Sequence record: NC_025447.1
Source of the DNA: Escherichia phage 121Q
Length of the DNA: 64,000 bases
Direction: 5' to 3' (one strand)
The translations under genes were made by a program, and so were the position numbers. The notes under the pieces are model-generated. The model saw only the letters and a program-made list of their open reading frames with translations, ran no database searches and had not been told where the DNA came from. Numbering within the stretch: position 1 is the first letter of the stretch; the number at the start of each line of letters is the position of its first letter. Shown one piece after another: positions 1,944 through 60,108 of this stretch.

Positions 1944-3006
<1,063 letters not shown>

Positions 3007-40175: not shown

Positions 40176-40476
40176 AATGAACAGTTGATGCACTTGGTAA
40201 GTAATAAAGCGTATTACGATGCATTCTTTGGGAAAAATGCTACAATTGAGGTTCATGTGTATTATGCTATTACATTTGGTGATTAATTTATGAAATATGA
40301 ACATTTAAAATACTATGCTGATAGAATAAATTATTATCCCTTTTATATAAGATTAGATGCATTAATATCAAAAAAAGTTGTATATAAACGTTCTCAAGCT
40401 GATCTAACCAATATAGCATTCATTCTTGCAGTACTGTCTAAAATGGGATAATATTAAATTAAGATGGATATTAAGA

Positions 40477-40653
40477 GATGACACATGAAGAATGGTTAGA
40501 TGAACTAAAATTCAAACATAATCCTTTTGGTTTTGGTATACGCCAAGGTCATTATGATGTGTTAAAAGATAAACAACTTTTCAAATCATTTGTACTTGAT
40601 GCGGATAGCAACCACTGGTTCATCTATGAGCTTGCAATTAGAGACAAAAAATA
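40477..40653 (+). CDS. MTHEEW-family small protein
   Basis: 58 aa MTHEEWLDEL...HWFIYELAIRDKK; below track cutoff. Confidence 0.5.
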
Positions 40654-40659
40654 GTAAGA

Positions 40660-40995
<336 letters not shown>

Positions 40996-40996
40996 A

Positions 40997-41179
40997 ATGA
41001 CACACGAAGAATGGATGTACAAACAGCATAAAGAACATGACTGCTTTGGGAATGGTATTCGTCAGGTACATTATGATATTCTCAAAGATATAAATTTATT
41101 CATAAAATATGTTTTGGATGAAAATAAACATTGGTTTATATATGAGATTGCATATAGAAACTCAAATAAACAAAAATAA
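40997..41179 (+). CDS. MTHEEW-family small protein
   Basis: MTHEEWMYKQ...HWFIYEIAYRN; paralog of 40477..40653. Confidence 0.5.
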   Translation: MTHEEWMYKQHKEHDCFGNGIRQVHYDILKDINLFIKYVLDENKHWFIYEIAYRNSNKQK

Positions 41180-41193
41180 ATAAGGAATATATT

Positions 41194-41412
41194 ATGGAAA
41201 CAACGTTATTTGAAGTTATTCAAGCATTAAAAACTGGTGATGACATTCAAGTATTGCTACATGGTTATCGTTTAAAAGGCACTGTGGTTTTAGTTAATGA
41301 CACAACGTTAGTTATTGCCGAAACAAATCCATATGATAGTAATCAAGTTGCTAATATCCATATTGATATTAAAAGCATTATTGGTGTAGGCGTAAATAAA
41401 AATCAAGAATAA
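41194..41412 (+). CDS. hypothetical small protein
   Basis: 72-aa ORF. Confidence 0.45.
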   Translation: METTLFEVIQALKTGDDIQVLLHGYRLKGTVVLVNDTTLVIAETNPYDSNQVANIHIDIKSIIGVGVNKNQE

Positions 41413-41490
41413 CAAATGTTTTTGAAAAAAACCAGAAAATGAATGATTTTTTTGGACAACTCAAAAATATATGATATAATAATTAGTACA

Positions 41491-41580
<90 letters not shown>

Positions 41581-41584
41581 ATAT

Positions 41585-41680
<96 letters not shown>

Positions 41681-41689
41681 CTAAAAACC

Positions 41690-41854
41690 ATGACGCATGA
41701 AGAATGGATGAATGATATTAATTTTAGATATTCGGGTATCGGTAGTTGGCGAAAATATCATTGGGAAATTATTTCAGACCCAGCAGAATACGATAAACTT
41801 ATAAACCATGAAGTATATCCGTGGTTCTTTATTGAAATAATGGTACGAATATGA
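41690..41854 (+). CDS. MTHEEW-family small protein
   Basis: MTHEEWMNDINFRYSGIGSW...; 54 aa. Confidence 0.5.
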   Translation: MTHEEWMNDINFRYSGIGSWRKYHWEIISDPAEYDKLINHEVYPWFFIEIMVRI

Positions 41855-42011
41855 CGCATGAAGAATGGATGAATGACATTAATTTTAGATATTCGGGTAT
41901 CGGTAAATGGCTAAAGTATCATTGGGAATTCATTTCAGAGCCACATATGTATGATAAACTTATCAACGATCCAGCATATGAAATGTACTTAATTGAACTA
42001 CTGGTACGAAT

Positions 42012-42015
<4 letters not shown>
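41851..42015 (+). CDS. MTHEEW-family small protein
   Basis: MTHEEWMNDINFRYSGIGKW...; near-duplicate of 41690 copy; ATGA overlap. Confidence 0.5.
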
Positions 42016-42177
<162 letters not shown>

Positions 42178-42185
42178 AAAAAAAG

Positions 42186-42595
<410 letters not shown>

Positions 42596-42599
<4 letters not shown>

Positions 42600-42630
42600 C
42601 TAAATAATTCAGTACTGAGGATATTAATAT
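42596..42630 (+). promoter_or_regulatory. degenerate copy of promoter cassette (copy 2)
   Basis: TTGACTAAATAATTCAGTACTGAGGATATTAATAT; -35 and spacer conserved, -10 degraded. Confidence 0.35.
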
Positions 42631-42656
42631 GTTTAAAGATGAACGTCCAGATTTGT

Positions 42657-42694
<38 letters not shown>

Positions 42695-42699
42695 GAATT

Positions 42700-43050
42700 C
42701 CACAATCAGACGTATATGGTGTAAGCTACGTCGATGCAATCCAGAACAAGATCTCTGGTACTCTAGGAAGTGGTGAATGTTAACCTAGACGGGTTTGATA
42801 ATTGGACGATAGGCAATTATTACTTGACTAGCAGGTTGAAACTAGAGGTGACAGTCCTTCACCAAACTGGAAAACCGGATGGACTTTTATTTAAAAGGGT
42901 AAGGCGTGGAAATATGTTTACAGAAGTTGCTTTTAGTAGCCTGTACGCCCCACGACAAGGTAGCCGAAAGGTAAGTTAAAACGGGTGGTTATAAAGCTGA
43001 ATTAACAGCGGCGTTTAAAAGCGTCACCATCCATTTTTTTAATTAAAGTT
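42700..43050 (+). ncRNA. candidate structured non-coding RNA downstream of early promoter
   Basis: About 350 nt between a consensus promoter and the next RBS with no convincing ORF, locally GC-richer, several hairpins including GGTGACAGTCCTTCACC and a GAAA-loop stem. Confidence 0.3.
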
Positions 43051-43056
43051 GGCGAT

Positions 43057-43809
<753 letters not shown>

Positions 43810-43826
43810 TTCACATGATATAGGGA

Positions 43827-44088
<262 letters not shown>

Positions 44089-44096
44089 GAATCTTC

Positions 44097-44498
44097 ATGA
44101 AAAAGAATGACTTGATCAAAATGCTCCAAGAGATTGACGGCAATCCAGAGATTGTTATTTGGAATGGCTATGTCGATGATTATATGAACATCGAAAAAGG
44201 CTTGACTAAAATCACACTAGTCAAAGAAACTGAACAGTTCCTTCTGAACGCATTAGAGCATGAATGGTGCGAACGTAACAAGACATTCGACATTCCAGAA
44301 GACCAACGAACTAAGATTGCAGAACGTGCTAAAGAACTTCATAAGAAGCGTGAATACGATTTCCAGAACCCATATGTTACTGAAGAAGAATTCAATCGCT
44401 GGTACGGAAAAAGAAAGTTGACAAAGTATGTTCTTTCACCTAAACTACGTGGTAAGACTTCTCTTGGTGTATTCAATGCATCTGACTTAGATTACTAA
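44097..44498 (+). CDS. hypothetical protein (paralog pair with 45138..45353)
   Basis: N-terminus MKKNDLIKMLQEIDGNPEIVIW resembles MKAKDLISILQKNPEADILIH. Confidence 0.55.
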   Translation: MKKNDLIKMLQEIDGNPEIVIWNGYVDDYMNIEKGLTKITLVKETEQFLLNALEHEWCERNKTFDIPEDQRTKIAERAKELHKKREYDFQNPYVTEEEFNRWYGKRKLTKYVLSPKLRGKTSLGVFNASDLDY

Positions 44499-44508
44499 GG
44501 AAAACAAA

Positions 44509-44829
44509 ATGATGTGGTATTCAAATGTACCGTGTGAACCTAAATATATTCAGATTTCACATAATGCACTGAAAGCGTTCTGTGATAATTGCAGTACTAA
44601 AGATTATCACTTCGAAGACTTCAGAACGTTGATTTATGACCATCACTGTCAGCCAGCAACCAAAGATGGTATGTTTGTAATTGAACAATTCTTTCATGGT
44701 AAGGTATTGCAAATTGTTGCTGATTATCTGAAAGCAATGGGATATATTATCAAAGATGATTATCTTGATTTAGAAGGTGAATGCATTGTTGATGGTTATG
44801 ATGGTGTACTGATGAATTGGACATGGTGA
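44509..44829 (+). CDS. hypothetical protein
   Basis: 106-aa ORF. Confidence 0.5.
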   Translation: MMWYSNVPCEPKYIQISHNALKAFCDNCSTKDYHFEDFRTLIYDHHCQPATKDGMFVIEQFFHGKVLQIVADYLKAMGYIIKDDYLDLEGECIVDGYDGVLMNWTW

Positions 44830-44833
44830 TGAA

Positions 44834-45136
44834 ATGATTGCAACAATGATGATTGTACTTATCCCAATAGTACTAGTAATTCTAGTGACTTCATATGGTG
44901 CAACCACAACTATTGAAGATCTAAAAACACATTACGCTATCGTCTTTAGTGAAGCACATGAAGACTTTGGTACAGTACTGACCGATAAGACTTATATTGC
45001 AACTAAATGTAAGTACTACCGATTCTGGGAACGTTCTGACAAATACCACTACAGAGATGAGAAAGGCGTGAATCAGTACTTAGACGTACTGGATGCATTC
45101 TTGAAACCTTACTATACAGTAACCGAGGTAAAATAA
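44834..45136 (+). CDS. hypothetical membrane-anchored protein
   Basis: N-terminal TM MIATMMIVLIPIVLVILV. Confidence 0.5.
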   Translation: MIATMMIVLIPIVLVILVTSYGATTTIEDLKTHYAIVFSEAHEDFGTVLTDKTYIATKCKYYRFWERSDKYHYRDEKGVNQYLDVLDAFLKPYYTVTEVK

Positions 45137-45137
45137 C

Positions 45138-45353
45138 GTGAAAGCTAAAGATTTGATTTCAATTTTACAGAAAAACCCAGAAGCAGATATTCTTATTCAT
45201 GCTTCGCCTTATGATGACTATGCGATTGGTAGTTGCGAAACTGCTCATTCATATCAAGCAGGGGACACCGCTGTTGAAGAGTCTGGTGAAGATTTTTCGG
45301 AATCATTTGATGAAGATGGAAAACTCTTAGTACCAGTCATCATTCTCTCATAA
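45138..45353 (+). CDS. hypothetical protein (paralog pair with 44097..44498)
   Basis: GTG start in track; N-terminal similarity to 44097 ORF. Confidence 0.45.
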   Translation: MKAKDLISILQKNPEADILIHASPYDDYAIGSCETAHSYQAGDTAVEESGEDFSESFDEDGKLLVPVIILS

Positions 45354-45360
45354 AAGAACG

Positions 45361-45543
<183 letters not shown>

Positions 45544-45562
45544 AGAGGTACTTCGAGTATGC

Positions 45563-45629
<67 letters not shown>

Positions 45630-45632
45630 TAA

Positions 45633-45661
45633 TTGACATAACTTTGAATGGAGTGTATTAT
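45633..45661 (+). promoter_or_regulatory. sigma70-type promoter
   Basis: TTGACA, 17-nt spacer, TATTAT. Confidence 0.5.
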
Positions 45662-55992: not shown

Positions 55993-56021
55993 TTGACATA
56001 ACAAATAATATGGAGTACAAT
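55993..56021 (+). promoter_or_regulatory. sigma70-type promoter
   Basis: TTGACA, 17-nt spacer, TACAAT. Confidence 0.5.
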
Positions 56022-56060: not shown

Positions 56061-56321
56061 ATGAAATCTATTCTCGTTGCAGTTAACCTGGTTGCTTCCC
56101 CATCTTTCAACTTCAAACAAGTTGTTGCTGATAATCTGAAGAAGATCTGTCCAAACGCTGAATTGACTTTCTGTGTATTTGATTCAGAAAAAGTAACTAA
56201 AGTTGATCTAAACTATCTTTTGAACGAAGTACAAAGCGTTTCTGGTGAAAGTAACTTAAAAGTTCTTCATGAGATTGCAGAAGATTATGATGACACTCTA
56301 GTAATTTCGGAGAAATTCTAA
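56061..56321 (+). CDS. hypothetical protein
   Basis: 86-aa ORF. Confidence 0.5.
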   Translation: MKSILVAVNLVASPSFNFKQVVADNLKKICPNAELTFCVFDSEKVTKVDLNYLLNEVQSVSGESNLKVLHEIAEDYDDTLVISEKF

Positions 56322-56326
56322 ATCAA

Positions 56327-56746
56327 ATGATTACATTCATTCAGTACTTAATCATTAAATTTTTTGGCTATTATACGATTGAGGGCAAAGCTACGCTTGC
56401 ACATAAAATCTTTGTAGCATTATGTACGGGTGATTATGACGTATTGAATAAGTACTGTAAATCTAAAGAATGTATTGATATAATGGCACTTCGTATCTAT
56501 GAGTGCCGATCCAATAGATACAATTTTTACCAGTACAGATTTGATAAAGAAGAATTTGATAGCATCAAAATGCTAAAGAATTTATGTAACAATAAAAAGA
56601 ATATGCATATATCAGAATTTGTTGCTTTGTATTTTTATTTAAAAAGTTCATTGTATATGAACACGATGCAAAGATTCGATACTAGAATTAATGTATTCAC
56701 CGATAAAGAATTTTATATATACGATAAATTCTTAGATAAGGTTTAA
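56327..56746 (+). CDS. hypothetical protein
   Basis: 139-aa ORF. Confidence 0.5.
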   Translation: MITFIQYLIIKFFGYYTIEGKATLAHKIFVALCTGDYDVLNKYCKSKECIDIMALRIYECRSNRYNFYQYRFDKEEFDSIKMLKNLCNNKKNMHISEFVALYFYLKSSLYMNTMQRFDTRINVFTDKEFYIYDKFLDKV

Positions 56747-56747
56747 T

Positions 56748-57245
56748 ATGACAACTGTTTATATTGATAAACGATTAAATTTATTGATTACCGATTCTAG
56801 AGTTACGTCAACTATACCACGAAACTTATTTGGTTTTTTCCCACTAAGACCAAAATATCAATATGGAGTTGTTAATCAAAAAACTTTATATGTACATGAC
56901 CGTTTATTCAGTGCTAGTGGGTCAGTAAGTGAAATTGATAAAGTACTGGATTGGTTAATTAATAAAGTACCAGTTATACCTGACAGAAAGTTAAGTTGCC
57001 ATTGTGTGCTTCTTTCTAAAGATTATGTTATTCATATGATTTTAACTAAAGGAAAGTTTATTAAAAAACTTGAATATCTACATGAAGACTACACTTTCTT
57101 TATGGGAAGTGGTGGAGAATACATGGTAGATGCTGCTATTCATGAAGAACATACAACTTTATATGATAAAGTGTTTAGTACTTTCATGGATGTGCATAAC
57201 CATGATTGCTTCACAGATGATAATATTAATGTATATCGATTTTGA
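56748..57245 (+). CDS. HslV/proteasome beta-like Ntn-hydrolase peptidase (putative)
   Basis: Starts MTTVYIDKR (Thr directly after Met, cf. HslV MTTIVSVRR); FFMGSGGEYMVDAA matches HslV IAIGSGGPYAQAA; Gly/Ser-rich FSASGSVSE at the position of HslV GFAGGTADAF; 165 aa. Confidence 0.5.
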   Translation: MTTVYIDKRLNLLITDSRVTSTIPRNLFGFFPLRPKYQYGVVNQKTLYVHDRLFSASGSVSEIDKVLDWLINKVPVIPDRKLSCHCVLLSKDYVIHMILTKGKFIKKLEYLHEDYTFFMGSGGEYMVDAAIHEEHTTLYDKVFSTFMDVHNHDCFTDDNINVYRF

Positions 57246-57266
57246 TTTCGTCATTAGGAGATGTAA

Positions 57267-58232
57267 GTGAAAAAGCTTGATTTAAATACAATTGCCGAAG
57301 AAGTTCTGGATGAATGTTTTTCTAATGAAGAAGTCAACACACTAGAAGCCTTAGATTTCGTTGAAGATAAAGATGAAAATGAAGGTAAAGTACAAAGCAG
57401 TTTCAAATATAATATTACACTTAAGCGACCACCAAATGTTTCCAATGAAGATCTAATTCGTGATATTCAAGCTGGTATCAATGTAAAGAAAAACACTGAA
57501 CTGTTAGTTCGTTACAATTATGGACTTATTATTGATGTAGCAAGTAAATGTACTTGTTATATCCCATTTGAAGATAAGATTTCATATGGTGTTGAGGGGT
57601 TCATGAGAGCACTAAAAACCTTTGATCTTAATAAGAATGTGAAGTTCATTACCTATGCTTCTTCTAGTATTTACATGACAGTTTATAACGAAAGTTCTGA
57701 CGCTAACTATATGGTACACTTCCCACGTTATATGAGTGTTCATAAGATCAAAGTAAAAAGATTCTGTCAGGAATATATGCGTAAACATGGTGTTCGCCCA
57801 ACTCCTGAAATAATCTCAGAGGGTACTGGGATTGAGATTCAGCATGTTAATAACTGTTTGTTATTTCAAAGCGAATACACTTCTCTGGATGCACCATTAG
57901 ACGGTGTTACCGATGGTACACTAGGTGACATTATTCATTCACCTGCTTCTGATTTTAACCTCAATGTTGATAGTATTCGTGCACCTTTACGTTATGCTAT
58001 CAATGAACTGACTAACGAATTGAGTACTAAAGAACGTGAGATTATCCAGCGTGTTCATGGTCTAGGTGAATATGAACCTGAAACGCTTCGTGAGATTGCT
58101 GATAATGGTTTTGTTGATGATAATGGAAAATATGTTAAATCCCGTTCATCAATACATCGAAAGTACAGTGAAGCTATGCAAAAGCTTAAGAAGCTAGTAC
58201 TTGCAAAAGGGTACGAATACGAAGATTTCTAA
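57267..58232 (+). CDS. sigma-70 family RNA polymerase sigma factor (regions 2 and 4)
   Basis: Region 2-like LVRYNYGLIIDVASK...GVEGFMRALKTFD...KFITYASSSIYMTV; region 4 HTH-like EREIIQRVHGL...ETLREIADNGF...SRSSIHRKYSEAMQKLKK; GTG start after AGGAG. Confidence 0.7.
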   Translation: MKKLDLNTIAEEVLDECFSNEEVNTLEALDFVEDKDENEGKVQSSFKYNITLKRPPNVSNEDLIRDIQAGINVKKNTELLVRYNYGLIIDVASKCTCYIPFEDKISYGVEGFMRALKTFDLNKNVKFITYASSSIYMTVYNESSDANYMVHFPRYMSVHKIKVKRFCQEYMRKHGVRPTPEIISEGTGIEIQHVNNCLLFQSEYTSLDAPLDGVTDGTLGDIIHSPASDFNLNVDSIRAPLRYAINELTNELSTKEREIIQRVHGLGEYEPETLREIADNGFVDDNGKYVKSRSSIHRKYSEAMQKLKKLVLAKGYEYEDF

Positions 58233-58240
58233 AGAAAAAA

Positions 58241-58265
58241 GGTTGGCTTATGCCAACCTTTTTTT
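58241..58265 (+). terminator. intrinsic terminator
   Basis: GGTTGGCTTATGCCAACC hairpin followed by T7 run. Confidence 0.65.
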
Positions 58266-58269
58266 ATGG

Positions 58270-58790
58270 GATGAAGTAAAAGTTTGTGATATAATTATCT
58301 TGTACAATTCTGTTGGCATGATATTCATGTACCTGATCCACTCGAAAACGTAGAGGGCAGTTGAGCAGTCCGACAGTGCGAACAGCAAAAGAAACCCGTT
58401 AGATGTGGGCATAGTTTGAACCCCTCACGGCAATGCGGCTGTATAAAGAACCACGTTAGGATAGCTGGTGGTTCCTTGATAGACATATAAGGATAACACC
58501 TTACGAATTATCTAAGGGAGAGTTATCAAATTTTGTACAGGAAAGTTGCGTCCAGAATTTGAGTACTCACATTAAGTATTTGATTGCATAGATACTTAAT
58601 GAAGATACACTATGTTTAAAAGTGTAGACCGTCATATGAAACTGAAGTAGAGAGAAACAGGATGACCCGCTTTCGCACTCGTTATGAGTAATCTTCAATG
58701 CAATAGCTCTGATACCATCAGCGTCAAATTTCCCTCCTTGTGGGGGGAAGAAAAATCCCTTCCTCAAATCCCGTCAATATTAAAAGTCCT
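58270..58790 (+). other. GC-richer non-coding region (candidate structured RNA or gene remnant)
   Basis: About 520 nt without a convincing ORF between terminator and next promoter; visibly higher GC than flanks. Confidence 0.3.
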
Positions 58791-58818
58791 TGACAGTTAT
58801 TAATCATTCGCGTAGAAT
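58790..58818 (+). promoter_or_regulatory. sigma70-type promoter
   Basis: TTGACA, 17-nt spacer, TAGAAT. Confidence 0.5.
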
Positions 58819-58882
58819 ACGTAGTATTAGAAGCGAACAGACATCTCGAAGAGATGGATGATTAACCATTAAGGAATATCCA

Positions 58883-59319: not shown

Positions 59320-60108
59320 ATGAGCACTATCGATGAACTGATTCAACGGAATTCAAAATATTACCAACCATCAGAAATTGTGGATAACATTACTAAATCT
59401 GAGTTTGGACCGAACACACGCAAACTCATTCATGTAATGTCACGTGATGGCTTTAAATGTGATTGTTGTGGTGAATCAAATGTAGTATTCACTTTACACA
59501 AGCACAGTACTAAAGAACGTTATAAATTCAGACCTTATGTACTTAAAGGGAAACGCCTTGTACGCATGACGTTAGACCATAATGTACTGGACTGTCTTCA
59601 GGGCGGTAATGATAAAGAGAACATGACTGCATTGTGTGAAGATTGTAACGCATTACGCCAGCATAAGTTTGCTGAGTACAGTGAGTTTAAACACTGGTAT
59701 CATAACGCGGATCGTTCAATCGAGCCTGACGTTAACTACTGCTTCATTGAGTACATTAAGAATGCCAAAGATACATACATTCTTAAATCAATGTCACCTA
59801 TTACCGTGTTTCCTGAGAACCTATTCACTACATTAAAGAATAGTTTTATTGTCGGTGATATTGATGCATTCAAGTATTTTGACAAAGGTGCAAAACATTT
59901 TGAAATTCAATGTCTTAGTACTGCACTATGTAAACTCATTAAAATTTACATAAAAGAGTATTTGGGTATTGACAATGTACGTGTACCAGAGTATACTTTT
60001 TCTATTGAATTCGATTGTGAATCAATTAAAGAGTTTGGAATTCTTTTCAATAAACAAATAGAACTTGCAATTCAAAACGAAATCAAGTACTATACTACTA
60101 ACATTTAA
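59320..60108 (+). CDS. HNH endonuclease (free-standing, homing-endonuclease-like)
   Basis: CDCCGESN ... MTLDHNVLDCLQGGNDKENMTALCEDCNALRQH: Cys pairs plus H-N-H catalytic pattern. Confidence 0.75.
   Translation: MSTIDELIQRNSKYYQPSEIVDNITKSEFGPNTRKLIHVMSRDGFKCDCCGESNVVFTLHKHSTKERYKFRPYVLKGKRLVRMTLDHNVLDCLQGGNDKENMTALCEDCNALRQHKFAEYSEFKHWYHNADRSIEPDVNYCFIEYIKNAKDTYILKSMSPITVFPENLFTTLKNSFIVGDIDAFKYFDKGAKHFEIQCLSTALCKLIKIYIKEYLGIDNVRVPEYTFSIEFDCESIKEFGILFNKQIELAIQNEIKYYTTNI

What the first reader, a model, noticed from the sequence alone, without database searches (positions are those of the whole stretch)
56748..57245. HslV/proteasome-like N-terminal-nucleophile peptidase encoded by the phage
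The ORF begins MTT (Thr1 nucleophile after Met removal, as in HslV) and contains GSGG in the context FFMGSGGEYMVDAA, closely matching the HslV motif IAIGSGGPYAQAA (E. coli HslV recalled from memory), with overall similar length. No HslU-like ATPase partner is evident in the window. A phage proteasome-like peptidase next to a sigma factor gene could point to regulated proteolysis of host or phage regulators.
Basis: partly seen in the sequence, partly recalled or inferred. Interest (0 to 1): 0.6.

Follow-up and report, generated by a model that had tools for sequence, protein, structure and literature searches.

The report
Phage proteasome-like (HslV-type) threonine peptidase
This jumbo coliphage gene really does encode a small proteasome/HslV-like peptidase with its catalytic residues intact, but it belongs to a phage-only branch that lacks the part HslV uses to dock its ATPase, and nobody yet knows what any member of this branch cuts.

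The parts
56748..57245 (+). Gene for the 165-aa proteasome/HslV-like Ntn (family T1-type) peptidase. Thr2 becomes the N-terminal nucleophile once Met1 is removed. Invariant in the family: T2, T3, D16, T20, K45, G58, G120-S121-G122, D153.
   Evidence: conservation; AF2 pLDDT 93.9; HslV top fold hit; hhalign to HslV, E 2e-6 to 8e-6, full length
56799..56870 (+). Codons 18-41: extended S3/S4 beta-hairpin, about 10 residues longer than in HslV, with a conserved F/L-P-L/Y tip (P32). This is the family signature next to the active site.
   Evidence: strands 18-27 and 31-41; 10-residue insertion versus HslV; conserved Pro; 'LPYP' in Vibrio-phage relatives; S3/S4 is the site of Connectase's active-site-covering insertion
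55993..56021 (+). Sigma-70 consensus promoter (TTGACA-N17-TACAAT), the nearest upstream of the peptidase gene and the presumed start of the four-gene unit
   Evidence: 16 strict matches in the window, all on the + strand, 0.57 expected by chance
56061..56321 (+). First gene of the unit, 86 aa, function unknown (phrog_26969). Not conserved with the peptidase beyond close relatives.
56327..56746 (+). Second gene of the unit, 139 aa, function unknown (phrog_37211). Its stop codon lies 1 nt before the peptidase ATG. Not conserved with the peptidase beyond close relatives.
57267..58232 (+). Phage sigma-70-family factor (321 aa, GTG start preceded by AGGAG), last gene of the unit. An ortholog lies downstream of the peptidase gene in 5 of 7 divergent contexts.
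58234..58265 (+). Intrinsic terminator (14-bp stem, UUAU loop, U-tract) directly after the sigma stop codon; 3' end of the unit
   Evidence: MFE -23.7 kcal/mol, z -4.76

Best explanation
The gene encodes a phage-specific proteasome homolog, a compact T1-type N-terminal-nucleophile hydrolase. [quoted passage not shown] Proposed mechanism, with the basis for each step. (1) It is transcribed by host RNA polymerase from a consensus sigma70 promoter, together with two small ORFs and the phage sigma factor. The promoter, tight gene packing and terminator are shown; early timing is inferred. (2) Host methionine aminopeptidase removes Met1, as it does for E. coli HslV, which also starts MTT. This exposes Thr2 as the N-terminal nucleophile with no propeptide (inferred from sequence and established T1 and MetAP chemistry). 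(3) Thr2, with D16 and K45 as the Asp17/Lys33-type partners, T20 as the Thr21-type substrate-backbone contact and the G120-S121-G122 loop, hydrolyses peptide bonds. Conservation and alignment are shown; activity is inferred. (4) It does not work as a canonical HslVU machine. Helix H2 is missing, the S3/S4 hairpin beside the active site is extended with a conserved proline tip, and the phage has no HslU/ClpX gene. It therefore most likely acts on its own or as a homo-oligomer, with substrate access governed by the hairpin, on specific host or phage proteins during infection. It is not the prohead protease and is not a detected virion component. The substrate is unknown.
For: Catalytic set: T2, T3, D16, T20, K45, G58, G120-S121-G122 and D153 are invariant in 23-24 sequences, with identity to the query falling to 19-24%. 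hhalign against five HslVs is full length, E 1.7e-6 to 7.9e-6, with T2/D16/T20/GSG aligned to Thr1/Asp17/Thr21/Gly-Ser124-Gly.
Functional gene: dN/dS about 0.10.
Phage-only clade: 16 representatives among 1.8 billion proteins. phrog_24804 E 1e-103 and phrog_1040 'peptidase HslV family' E 4.9e-6, with 16 of 24 members hitting it. hhalign to Vibrio-phage members gives 99.2% probability, E 1.2e-18. Wider clade of 165-183 aa proteins.
PPH-like architecture: a single helix (60-72) where HslV has H1+H2, and the chain ends right after the last strand. PMC8665760 states PPH/RPC lack H2, have no propeptide and are phage-borne.
No unfoldase partner: no AAA+ gene beside any homolog. Across the Sharanji genome, HslU hits only the ClpA-like gp377 Walker A.
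Transcription unit.
Not structural: a separate S77 prohead protease sits next to the capsid genes, and the phAPEC6 ortholog gp067c is absent from the virion proteome table.
Against: No enzymatic, structural or genetic data exist for any family member. Active-site geometry could not be inspected because the tools return no coordinates. hhalign places the invariant K45 one column away from Lys33 (Q44 aligns with Lys33) in a low-confidence stretch beside the insertion. The oxyanion-hole glycine (Gly45 in HslV, Gly47 in 20S) cannot be assigned unambiguously: G58 is invariant, but position 56 is Ala here. Oligomeric state is unknown. A linker-joined tandem gave pTM 0.72 in the best model, but the five models ranged from 60 to 82 pLDDT and there was no control. 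Use of host HslU or the phage ClpA-like ATPase is argued against only by architecture, not tested. Membership in PPH proper could not be tested by sequence, and the protein is 165 aa rather than about 140.
Confidence: 0.7

Rival explanations
1. It is a functional HslV replacement: it assembles into HslV-like double hexameric rings that dock the host's HslU ATPase and redirect ATP-dependent degradation to targets useful to the phage.
For: HslV is the single best structural match. The N-terminus MTT and the GSGG motif are as in E. coli HslV. The host E. coli encodes HslU (established knowledge). The tandem model gave a moderately confident two-subunit arrangement (pTM 0.72).
Confidence: 0.12
2. 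It is a sequence-specific processing enzyme or transpeptidase rather than a bulk degradative protease, working like Connectase (a monomeric proteasome homolog that acts on one target). A specific version: it processes the co-transcribed phage sigma factor or a host transcription regulator, analogous to the B. subtilis spoIIGA-sigE operon in which the upstream protease gene product matures pro-sigma-E.
Against: Mimasvirus phages (GAP32, CBB, XbC2) keep a sigma ortholog that aligns from residue 1-2 yet have no family member nearby or by tblastn. Two divergent homologs have no sigma within 6-8 kb. The linkage can be explained by inherited synteny. Connectase lacks both H1 and H2, whereas this protein lacks only H2. 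The spoIIGA analogy rests on my own knowledge and is not a homology.
Confidence: 0.13
3. It partners with the phage's own ClpA-like AAA+ ATPase (Sharanji gp377) as an alternative peptidase to ClpP.
For: The phage encodes a ClpA-type double AAA+ ATPase, a ClpP and a ClpS-domain protein, which shows investment in regulated proteolysis.
Against: gp377 has an IG(M) loop at the place where I recall E. coli ClpA having its ClpP-docking IGL loop, and a cognate ClpP is encoded. The genes are more than 130 kb apart. No precedent is known to me for Clp ATPases docking onto a proteasome-type peptidase.
Confidence: 0.03
4. It is a catalytically dead scaffold or decoy that merely retains the fold.
For: Some relatives look broken: ICP1 copies need a frameshift and the 501E54-1 copy has an in-frame stop. 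The oxyanion glycine is not unambiguously conserved.
Against: All other catalytic positions are invariant across relatives with as little as about 20% identity. The N-terminus is invariably MTT. dN/dS is about 0.10.
Confidence: 0.02

Closest known systems
[quoted passage not shown]
   Same: Encoded by tailed phages. No propeptide (Thr directly after Met). Lacks helix H2. Compact C-terminus without S12/H5. Catalytic Thr/Asp/Lys retained. Closer to HslV/BPH than to Anbu-type families.
   Different: 165 aa rather than about 140. It has an S3/S4 hairpin about 10 residues longer, whereas the paper describes this group as compact and without insertions. Sequence clustering with the PPH reference (WP_042125023.1) could not be tested here.
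phrog_1040 'peptidase HslV family' (Vibrio phage PWH3a-P1 VPIG_00136, ICP1 ORF163, helene, KLEP7 gp189)
   Same: Homologous over the full length (hhalign 99.2%, E 1.2e-18). Same motifs: MTTxxxD, (S/T)DSR.T, QK, G.GS, GSG, D..YTDD. Similar size (166-183 aa). Extended hairpin with a conserved proline.
   Different: Only 19-21% identity, and a separate PHROG (24804, labelled unknown function). Different phage lineages (~120-150-kb Vibrio/Pseudaeromonas myoviruses against ~350-kb Rak2-like jumbo phages). No sigma factor neighbour in the Vibrio phages.
HslV (ClpQ), the peptidase of the bacterial HslVU ATP-dependent protease (MEROPS T1B; TIGR03692; PDB 1M4Y, 1G3I, 1NED)
   Same: Best structural match. 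N-terminal MTT. Thr1/Asp17/Thr21/Gly-Ser-Gly columns aligned. Similar length. No C-terminal H5.
   Different: Fails the curated HslV models. Lacks helix H2. 10-residue insertion in the S3/S4 hairpin. About 12-19% identity. No HslU gene adjacent or in the phage genome.
Other stand-alone bacterial and archaeal proteasome homologs: BPH, Anbu, Connectase
   Different: BPH and Anbu retain H1+H2 and have longer pore loops or C-terminal helices. Connectase lacks both H1 and H2 and is an archaeal ligase.

Membership tests
Proteasome-type Ntn hydrolases (MEROPS family T1 fold) | Alpha-beta-beta-alpha sandwich of the proteasome beta/HslV type | tested here: met
Proteasome-type Ntn hydrolases (MEROPS family T1 fold) | N-terminal Thr/Ser nucleophile plus Asp17 and Lys33 equivalents | tested here: met
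   T2, D16 and K45 are invariant in 23-24 sequences. T2 and D16 align to Thr1 and Asp17. K45 is the only invariant Lys, but hhalign puts it one column off Lys33. Geometry was not inspected.
Proteasome-type Ntn hydrolases (MEROPS family T1 fold) | Oxyanion-hole glycine (Gly47 in 20S, Gly45 in HslV) | tested here: inconclusive
   G58 is invariant and ends the strand before H1. The alignment to HslV is ambiguous between position 56 (Ala here, Gly in Vibrio-phage relatives) and G58.
Proteasome-type Ntn hydrolases (MEROPS family T1 fold) | Gly-Ser-Gly loop (Ser129 in 20S, Ser124 in HslV) | tested here: met
   G120-S121-G122 is invariant and aligns to the GSGG of HslV in BLASTP and hhalign.
HslV (HslVU peptidase subunit) | Passes the curated sequence models (TIGR03692, NF003964, Pfam PF00227) | tested here: not met
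   No hit for the query. The best among 24 family members is E 0.056-0.086, far below the cut-offs. A profile against PDB sequences finds no HslV.
HslV (HslVU peptidase subunit) | Two apical helices H1 and H2 forming the HslU-facing surface | tested here: not met
   The model has one helix (60-72) followed by a loop and a strand. hhalign opens gaps where HslV has H2.
HslV (HslVU peptidase subunit) | Cognate HslU ATPase encoded alongside (hslVU operon) or in the same genome | tested here: not met
   No AAA+ neighbour in the window or in seven relatives' loci. No HslU/ClpX gene in the 350-kb Sharanji genome. Use of the host's HslU is not testable here.
HslV (HslVU peptidase subunit) | Double hexameric ring assembly | tested here: inconclusive
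   The tandem two-copy AF2 run gave pTM 0.72 for the best model, with wide spread between models and no coordinates or control.
PPH (Fuchs et al. 2021) | Lacks helix H2; no propeptide; no S12/H5 C-terminal elements | tested here: met
   Secondary structure of the model compared with the description in PMC8665760. The sequence starts MTT.
PPH (Fuchs et al. 2021) | Found in tailed phages and prophages | tested here: met
   All homologs found are in phage genomes or phage-like contigs.
PPH (Fuchs et al. 2021) | About 140 residues, compact, without insertions | tested here: not met
   165 aa, and the clade is 165-183 aa. 10-residue insertion in the S3/S4 hairpin. Family members do map onto about 140 positions (14-155) of phrog_1040.
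PPH (Fuchs et al. 2021) | Clusters by sequence with the PPH reference (WP_042125023.1) | not testable with these tools
   The reference sequence is not retrievable by accession, AFDB50 was unavailable, and the paper's supplement holds no sequences.
phrog_1040 'peptidase HslV family' | Significant match to the family profile or its members | tested here: met
   E 4.9e-6 for the query; 16 of 24 members match, best 8.8e-11. hhalign to four members gives E 1.2e-18. The protein's own, better-matching PHROG is 24804 (E 1e-103), so the relation is at superfamily level.

The most novel reading that the evidence does not exclude
The peptidase is an unfoldase-independent, site-specific protease or transpeptidase made from a host-type promoter together with the phage sigma factor. 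It remodels the transcription machinery by maturing the phage sigma or by cleaving a host sigma, anti-sigma or other regulator. That would give the first function for any viral proteasome homolog and a phage counterpart of the spoIIGA-sigE logic.
Probability: 0.1. Interest if true: 0.8.

Novelty: new member of a known kind. Interest (0 to 1): 0.45.

Why it matters
Proteasome homologs carried by phages were recognised only by sequence analysis in 2021, and I found no experimental work on any of them, so their substrates, oligomeric state and need for an unfoldase are all open. This copy is unusually tractable. A 99.7%-identical phage (Sharanji) is recorded with E. coli K-12 MG1655 as host, so host delta-hslU and clp mutants could be tested directly, alongside point mutants of Thr2 if the phage can be engineered. 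The protein is small and predicted with high confidence. It sits in a cleanly bounded operon with the phage sigma factor, in a phage that also carries its own ClpA/ClpP/ClpS set. Showing what it cuts would tell us why large phages bring their own proteolysis machinery. For annotation, most of the public records listed here call this gene 'hypothetical protein'. It can be named a proteasome/HslV-like (PPH-like) Ntn peptidase, but not 'ATP-dependent protease subunit HslV'.

Tried and rejected
1. Direct sequence routes to HslV failed or were marginal. Pfam, NCBIfam and PDB phmmer/hmmsearch gave nothing significant. Only PHROGs and profile-profile comparison bridged the gap.
2. tblastn with E. coli HslV against the phage collection returned only host-DNA fragments mislabelled as phage, not true phage HslVs.
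3. Word-indexed profile searches with A2 did not leave the family. Adding the Vibrio-phage relatives (A3) widened it only within the phage clade.
5. Candidate partner genes: the two upstream ORFs are not conserved with the peptidase. PADLOC finds no defence-system relation.
6. The ~175-188-aa ORFs upstream of sigma in GAP32, CBB and XbC2 were tested as possible divergent homologs and rejected.
7. Prohead-protease role rejected: a separate S77 protease sits beside the capsid genes, and the ortholog is absent from the phAPEC6 virion proteome table.
8. The corollary of the sigma-processing idea, that sigma orthologs in peptidase-less phages would lack the N-terminal region, was not borne out.
9. 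Tandem-copy AF2 as an oligomerisation test gave an ambiguous result.
10. The Rfam scan of the gap after sigma gave only sub-threshold hits that correspond to the terminator hairpin.

Full report
OBSERVATION. The ORF at 56748-57245 (+) exists as described. It has an ATG start, encodes 165 aa, begins MTTVYID and contains FFMGSGGEYMVDAA. The window comes from a PBECO4/121Q-type (genus Asteriusvirus, Rak2-like) jumbo coliphage. The 2.3-kb region around the gene is 99.8% identical to phage CRJP21 and 99.7% to G17 and Sharanji, and the window maps to Sharanji 138534-75698. The gene is Sharanji gp183 and phAPEC6 gp067c. It is conserved in about 50 jumbo-phage records from Escherichia, Klebsiella, Salmonella and Erwinia, down to 30% identity. 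Most call it 'hypothetical protein', and two already call it 'ATP-dependent protease (subunit HslV)'. dN/dS against the 74.5%-identical fEgEco12 ortholog is about 0.10, so the gene is under purifying selection.

IS IT A PROTEASOME/HSLV-LIKE NTN HYDROLASE? Direct sequence tests are weak. Pfam gives nothing for the query, and PF00227 appears only at E 0.086 in 2 of 24 relatives. NCBIfam HslV models reach E about 0.06 in 1 of 24. PDB sequence and profile searches find no HslV. BLASTP to E. coli HslV gives E 0.035 over the GSGG region. PHROGs gives the first real link. The protein's own family is phrog_24804 (unknown function, E 1e-103), and it also matches phrog_1040 'peptidase HslV family' at E 4.9e-6, as do 16 of 24 relatives, the best at 8.8e-11.

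In alignments reaching 19-24% identity to the query, the invariant columns are M1, T2, T3, D16, T20, K45, G58, G120-S121-G122 and D153. A profile-profile alignment of the widened family against five true HslVs is full length (probability 80-84%, E 1.7e-6 to 7.9e-6). It puts T2 on Thr1, D16 on Asp17, T20 on Thr21 and GSG on Gly-Ser124-Gly.

Two caveats apply. The invariant K45 is placed one column from Lys33 in a low-confidence stretch beside an insertion. The oxyanion glycine cannot be assigned unambiguously between position 56 (Ala here) and the invariant G58. I could not inspect coordinates, so geometry is untested.

IT IS NOT A CANONICAL HSLV. Besides failing the curated models, the model has a single helix (60-72) where HslV has H1 and H2, and it has a long beta-hairpin (strands 18-27 and 31-41). 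hhalign shows a 10-residue insertion there and gaps where H2 would be. No AAA+ gene lies next to the gene in the window or in seven divergent relatives' loci. In the complete Sharanji genome, tblastn with E. coli HslU hits only the Walker A of gp377 at E 3.6e-4.

That genome does encode other proteolysis genes. gp377 is a ClpA-type double AAA+ ATPase with an SIGMSG loop where I recall E. coli ClpA having its ClpP-docking IGL loop. gp496 is a ClpP. gp293 is a ClpS-domain protein and lies in the window at 2461-3006. gp358 is an S77 prohead protease beside the capsid genes. The prohead protease rules out a head-maturation role for the Ntn protein, and the phAPEC6 ortholog is absent from the table of 62 virion proteins.

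WHAT FAMILY IS IT? An exhaustive search of 1.8 billion representatives finds only 16 hits. Thirteen are phage-type proteins (eleven full-length at 165-181 aa and two short fragments), and the last three are weak partial matches to much longer proteins. A relaxed tblastn from a distant member touched Vibrio phage PWH3a-P1 VPIG_00136, which RefSeq annotates as 'peptidase HslV family'. Its relatives occur in ICP1 (ORF163), helene, eugene, KLEP7 and others. Family against these Vibrio-phage proteins gives hhalign probability 99.2%, E 1.2e-18, full length, with shared motifs MTTxxxD, (S/T)DSR.T, QK, G.GS, GSG and D..YTDD. A combined profile retrieves a coherent phage clade of 165-183 aa, none with a precomputed Pfam domain. 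BFVD shows about 20 phage proteins with this fold, including proteins from other jumbo-phage lineages such as Noxifer, RisingSun, PhiPA3, RP12, RSF1 and CcrBL9.

The literature already holds the concept. [quoted passage not shown] They also found AAH and CPH in phages, all of unknown function. The present protein shares the PPH hallmarks but is longer, with the S3/S4 hairpin extension. According to that paper, S3/S4 is the site where Connectase carries its active-site-covering specificity element. I could not test sequence clustering with the PPH reference. I found no experimental study of any phage member. Genome papers merely note 'HslV without HslU' in other jumbo phages.

CONTEXT AND EXPRESSION. 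Strict sigma70 consensus promoters (TTGACA-N16-18-TAHAAT) occur 16 times in the window, all on the coding strand, against 0.57 expected. The nearest upstream of the gene is at 55993-56021. It is followed by tightly packed ORFs at 56061 (86 aa), 56327 (139 aa, stop 1 nt before the peptidase ATG), 56748 (the peptidase) and 57267 (sigma factor, AGGAG-GTG). A strong intrinsic terminator lies at 58234-58265, directly after the sigma stop. The peptidase and the phage sigma factor are therefore very probably co-transcribed by host RNA polymerase. This fits the presumed early region described for the related phage CBB.

The sigma ortholog follows the peptidase gene in 5 of 7 divergent contexts, whereas the two upstream ORFs are conserved only in close relatives. 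However, at least one of those contexts is broadly syntenic, and two homologs lack a nearby sigma. Mimasvirus phages (GAP32, CBB, XbC2) and others keep a full-length sigma ortholog with no detectable peptidase. The peptidase is thus an accessory gene and the sigma does not depend on it. A functional link remains possible but unproven.

MECHANISM (most likely). The protein is made from a host-type promoter. Met1 is removed by host methionine aminopeptidase, as for E. coli HslV, which also begins MTT. Thr2 acts as the N-terminal nucleophile with D16, K45 and the GSG loop, and T20 contacts the substrate backbone. The extended, proline-tipped S3/S4 hairpin shapes substrate access or subunit contacts. 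There is no dedicated unfoldase. Conservation, fold and operon structure are shown. Catalysis, oligomeric state and substrate are inferred or unknown. A tandem two-copy AF2 run gave pTM 0.72 for the best model, but with wide disagreement between models and no control, so it is only a hint of self-association.

RIVALS. The rivals are hijacking of host HslU (about 0.12), a Connectase-like site-specific enzyme that might act on the co-expressed sigma or a host regulator (about 0.13), partnership with the phage ClpA-like ATPase (about 0.03), and a dead scaffold (about 0.02).

VERDICT. The HslVU-like mode of action is not supported. The gene is a member, or a longer variant, of an already described but functionally uncharacterised class of phage proteasome homologs. 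Interest is moderate. A specialist would not be surprised that it exists, but the copy is experimentally tractable, since the near-identical phage Sharanji is recorded with E. coli K-12 MG1655 as host, and it could give the first function for a viral proteasome homolog.

Noticed in passing
window 2461-3006 (+), with 1944-2447 (+) upstream; Sharanji gp377 (217594-219882) and gp496 (304750-305445): The window encodes a ClpS-domain protein (181 aa, PF02617 E 2e-5) just after an IF3-like ORF. Elsewhere the same phage encodes a ClpA-type double AAA+ ATPase (with an SIGMSG loop where I recall ClpA's IGL ClpP-docking loop) and a ClpP. Together these form a phage-borne ClpA/ClpP/ClpS set, plus two GroES-like genes.
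   Followed up: partly
window 1871, 17632, 20055, 25804, 27685, 32081, 34131, 35991, 36538, 52464, 54310, 55672, 55993, 60615, 60963, 62021 (all + strand): There are sixteen strict sigma70 consensus promoters (TTGACA-N16-18-TA[ACT]AAT), all on the coding strand, against 0.57 expected by chance. This is a dense array of host-type promoters in this block of small genes.
   Followed up: partly
window 58234-58265 and 58266-58882: A strong intrinsic terminator follows the sigma gene directly. After it come about 620 nt with no + strand ORF of at least 40 aa, which is unusual in this tightly packed genome. Rfam gives only sub-threshold hits on the terminator hairpin.
   Followed up: partly
L014:3001-3547 (Vibrio phage ICP1 NC_015157 88323-88869); L017:301-840 (Vibrio phage 501E54-1): ICP1's homolog (ORF163, 'peptidase HslV family') is split. 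The MTT... N-terminus is in a different frame from the annotated ORF and needs a +1 shift near CCCCAAGAAAAATTAC. All ICP1 isolates listed matched in two pieces. The 501E54-1 copy has an in-frame stop. These are either pseudogenes or recoding.
   Followed up: partly
window 56061-58232 compared with L001:5314-7486 (fEgEco12): Within one operon, the two upstream ORFs are 94% and 90% identical between the two phages, but the peptidase is 74.5% and the sigma factor 59%. The peptidase-sigma pair is either evolving much faster or has been exchanged as a module.
   Followed up: no
L026, L027, L028 (GAP32, CBB, XbC2 sigma loci): Mimasvirus phages keep the sigma ortholog but have a small HTH-protein gene immediately upstream, and no peptidase homolog within 3.5 kb or by tblastn.
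   Followed up: partly
L016:1-147 (KLEP7 gp190) and L007:9037-9360: A DUF4326 gene lies next to, or two genes away from, the peptidase homolog in two unrelated contexts.
   Followed up: no
window 59320-60108 (+): A 262-aa ORF with Cys-rich motifs lies downstream of the operon. The syntenic fEgEco12 gene is annotated as an HNH endonuclease, possibly a mobile homing element near the sigma gene.
   Followed up: no
window about 40465-45642: Identity to Sharanji drops to 86-94%, with gaps, over the stretch that corresponds to Sharanji's tRNA gene cluster (tRNA-Thr, Asn, Met, Ser, Arg, Gly). This is a variable tRNA region.
   Followed up: no
phages collection records OR845448.1, OR851086.1, OR849164.1, OR846616.1 and others: Short records labelled as phages carry bona fide bacterial hslV-hslU genes (97% identity to E. 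coli HslV). They look like host-DNA contigs, so 'phage HslV' hits there are artefacts.
   Followed up: partly
window 57267-58229 (sigma factor): The phage sigma factor matches the PADLOC model MzaA (E 1.3e-7) over its sigma-like region. This is probably shared sigma-domain homology rather than a defence function.
   Followed up: no
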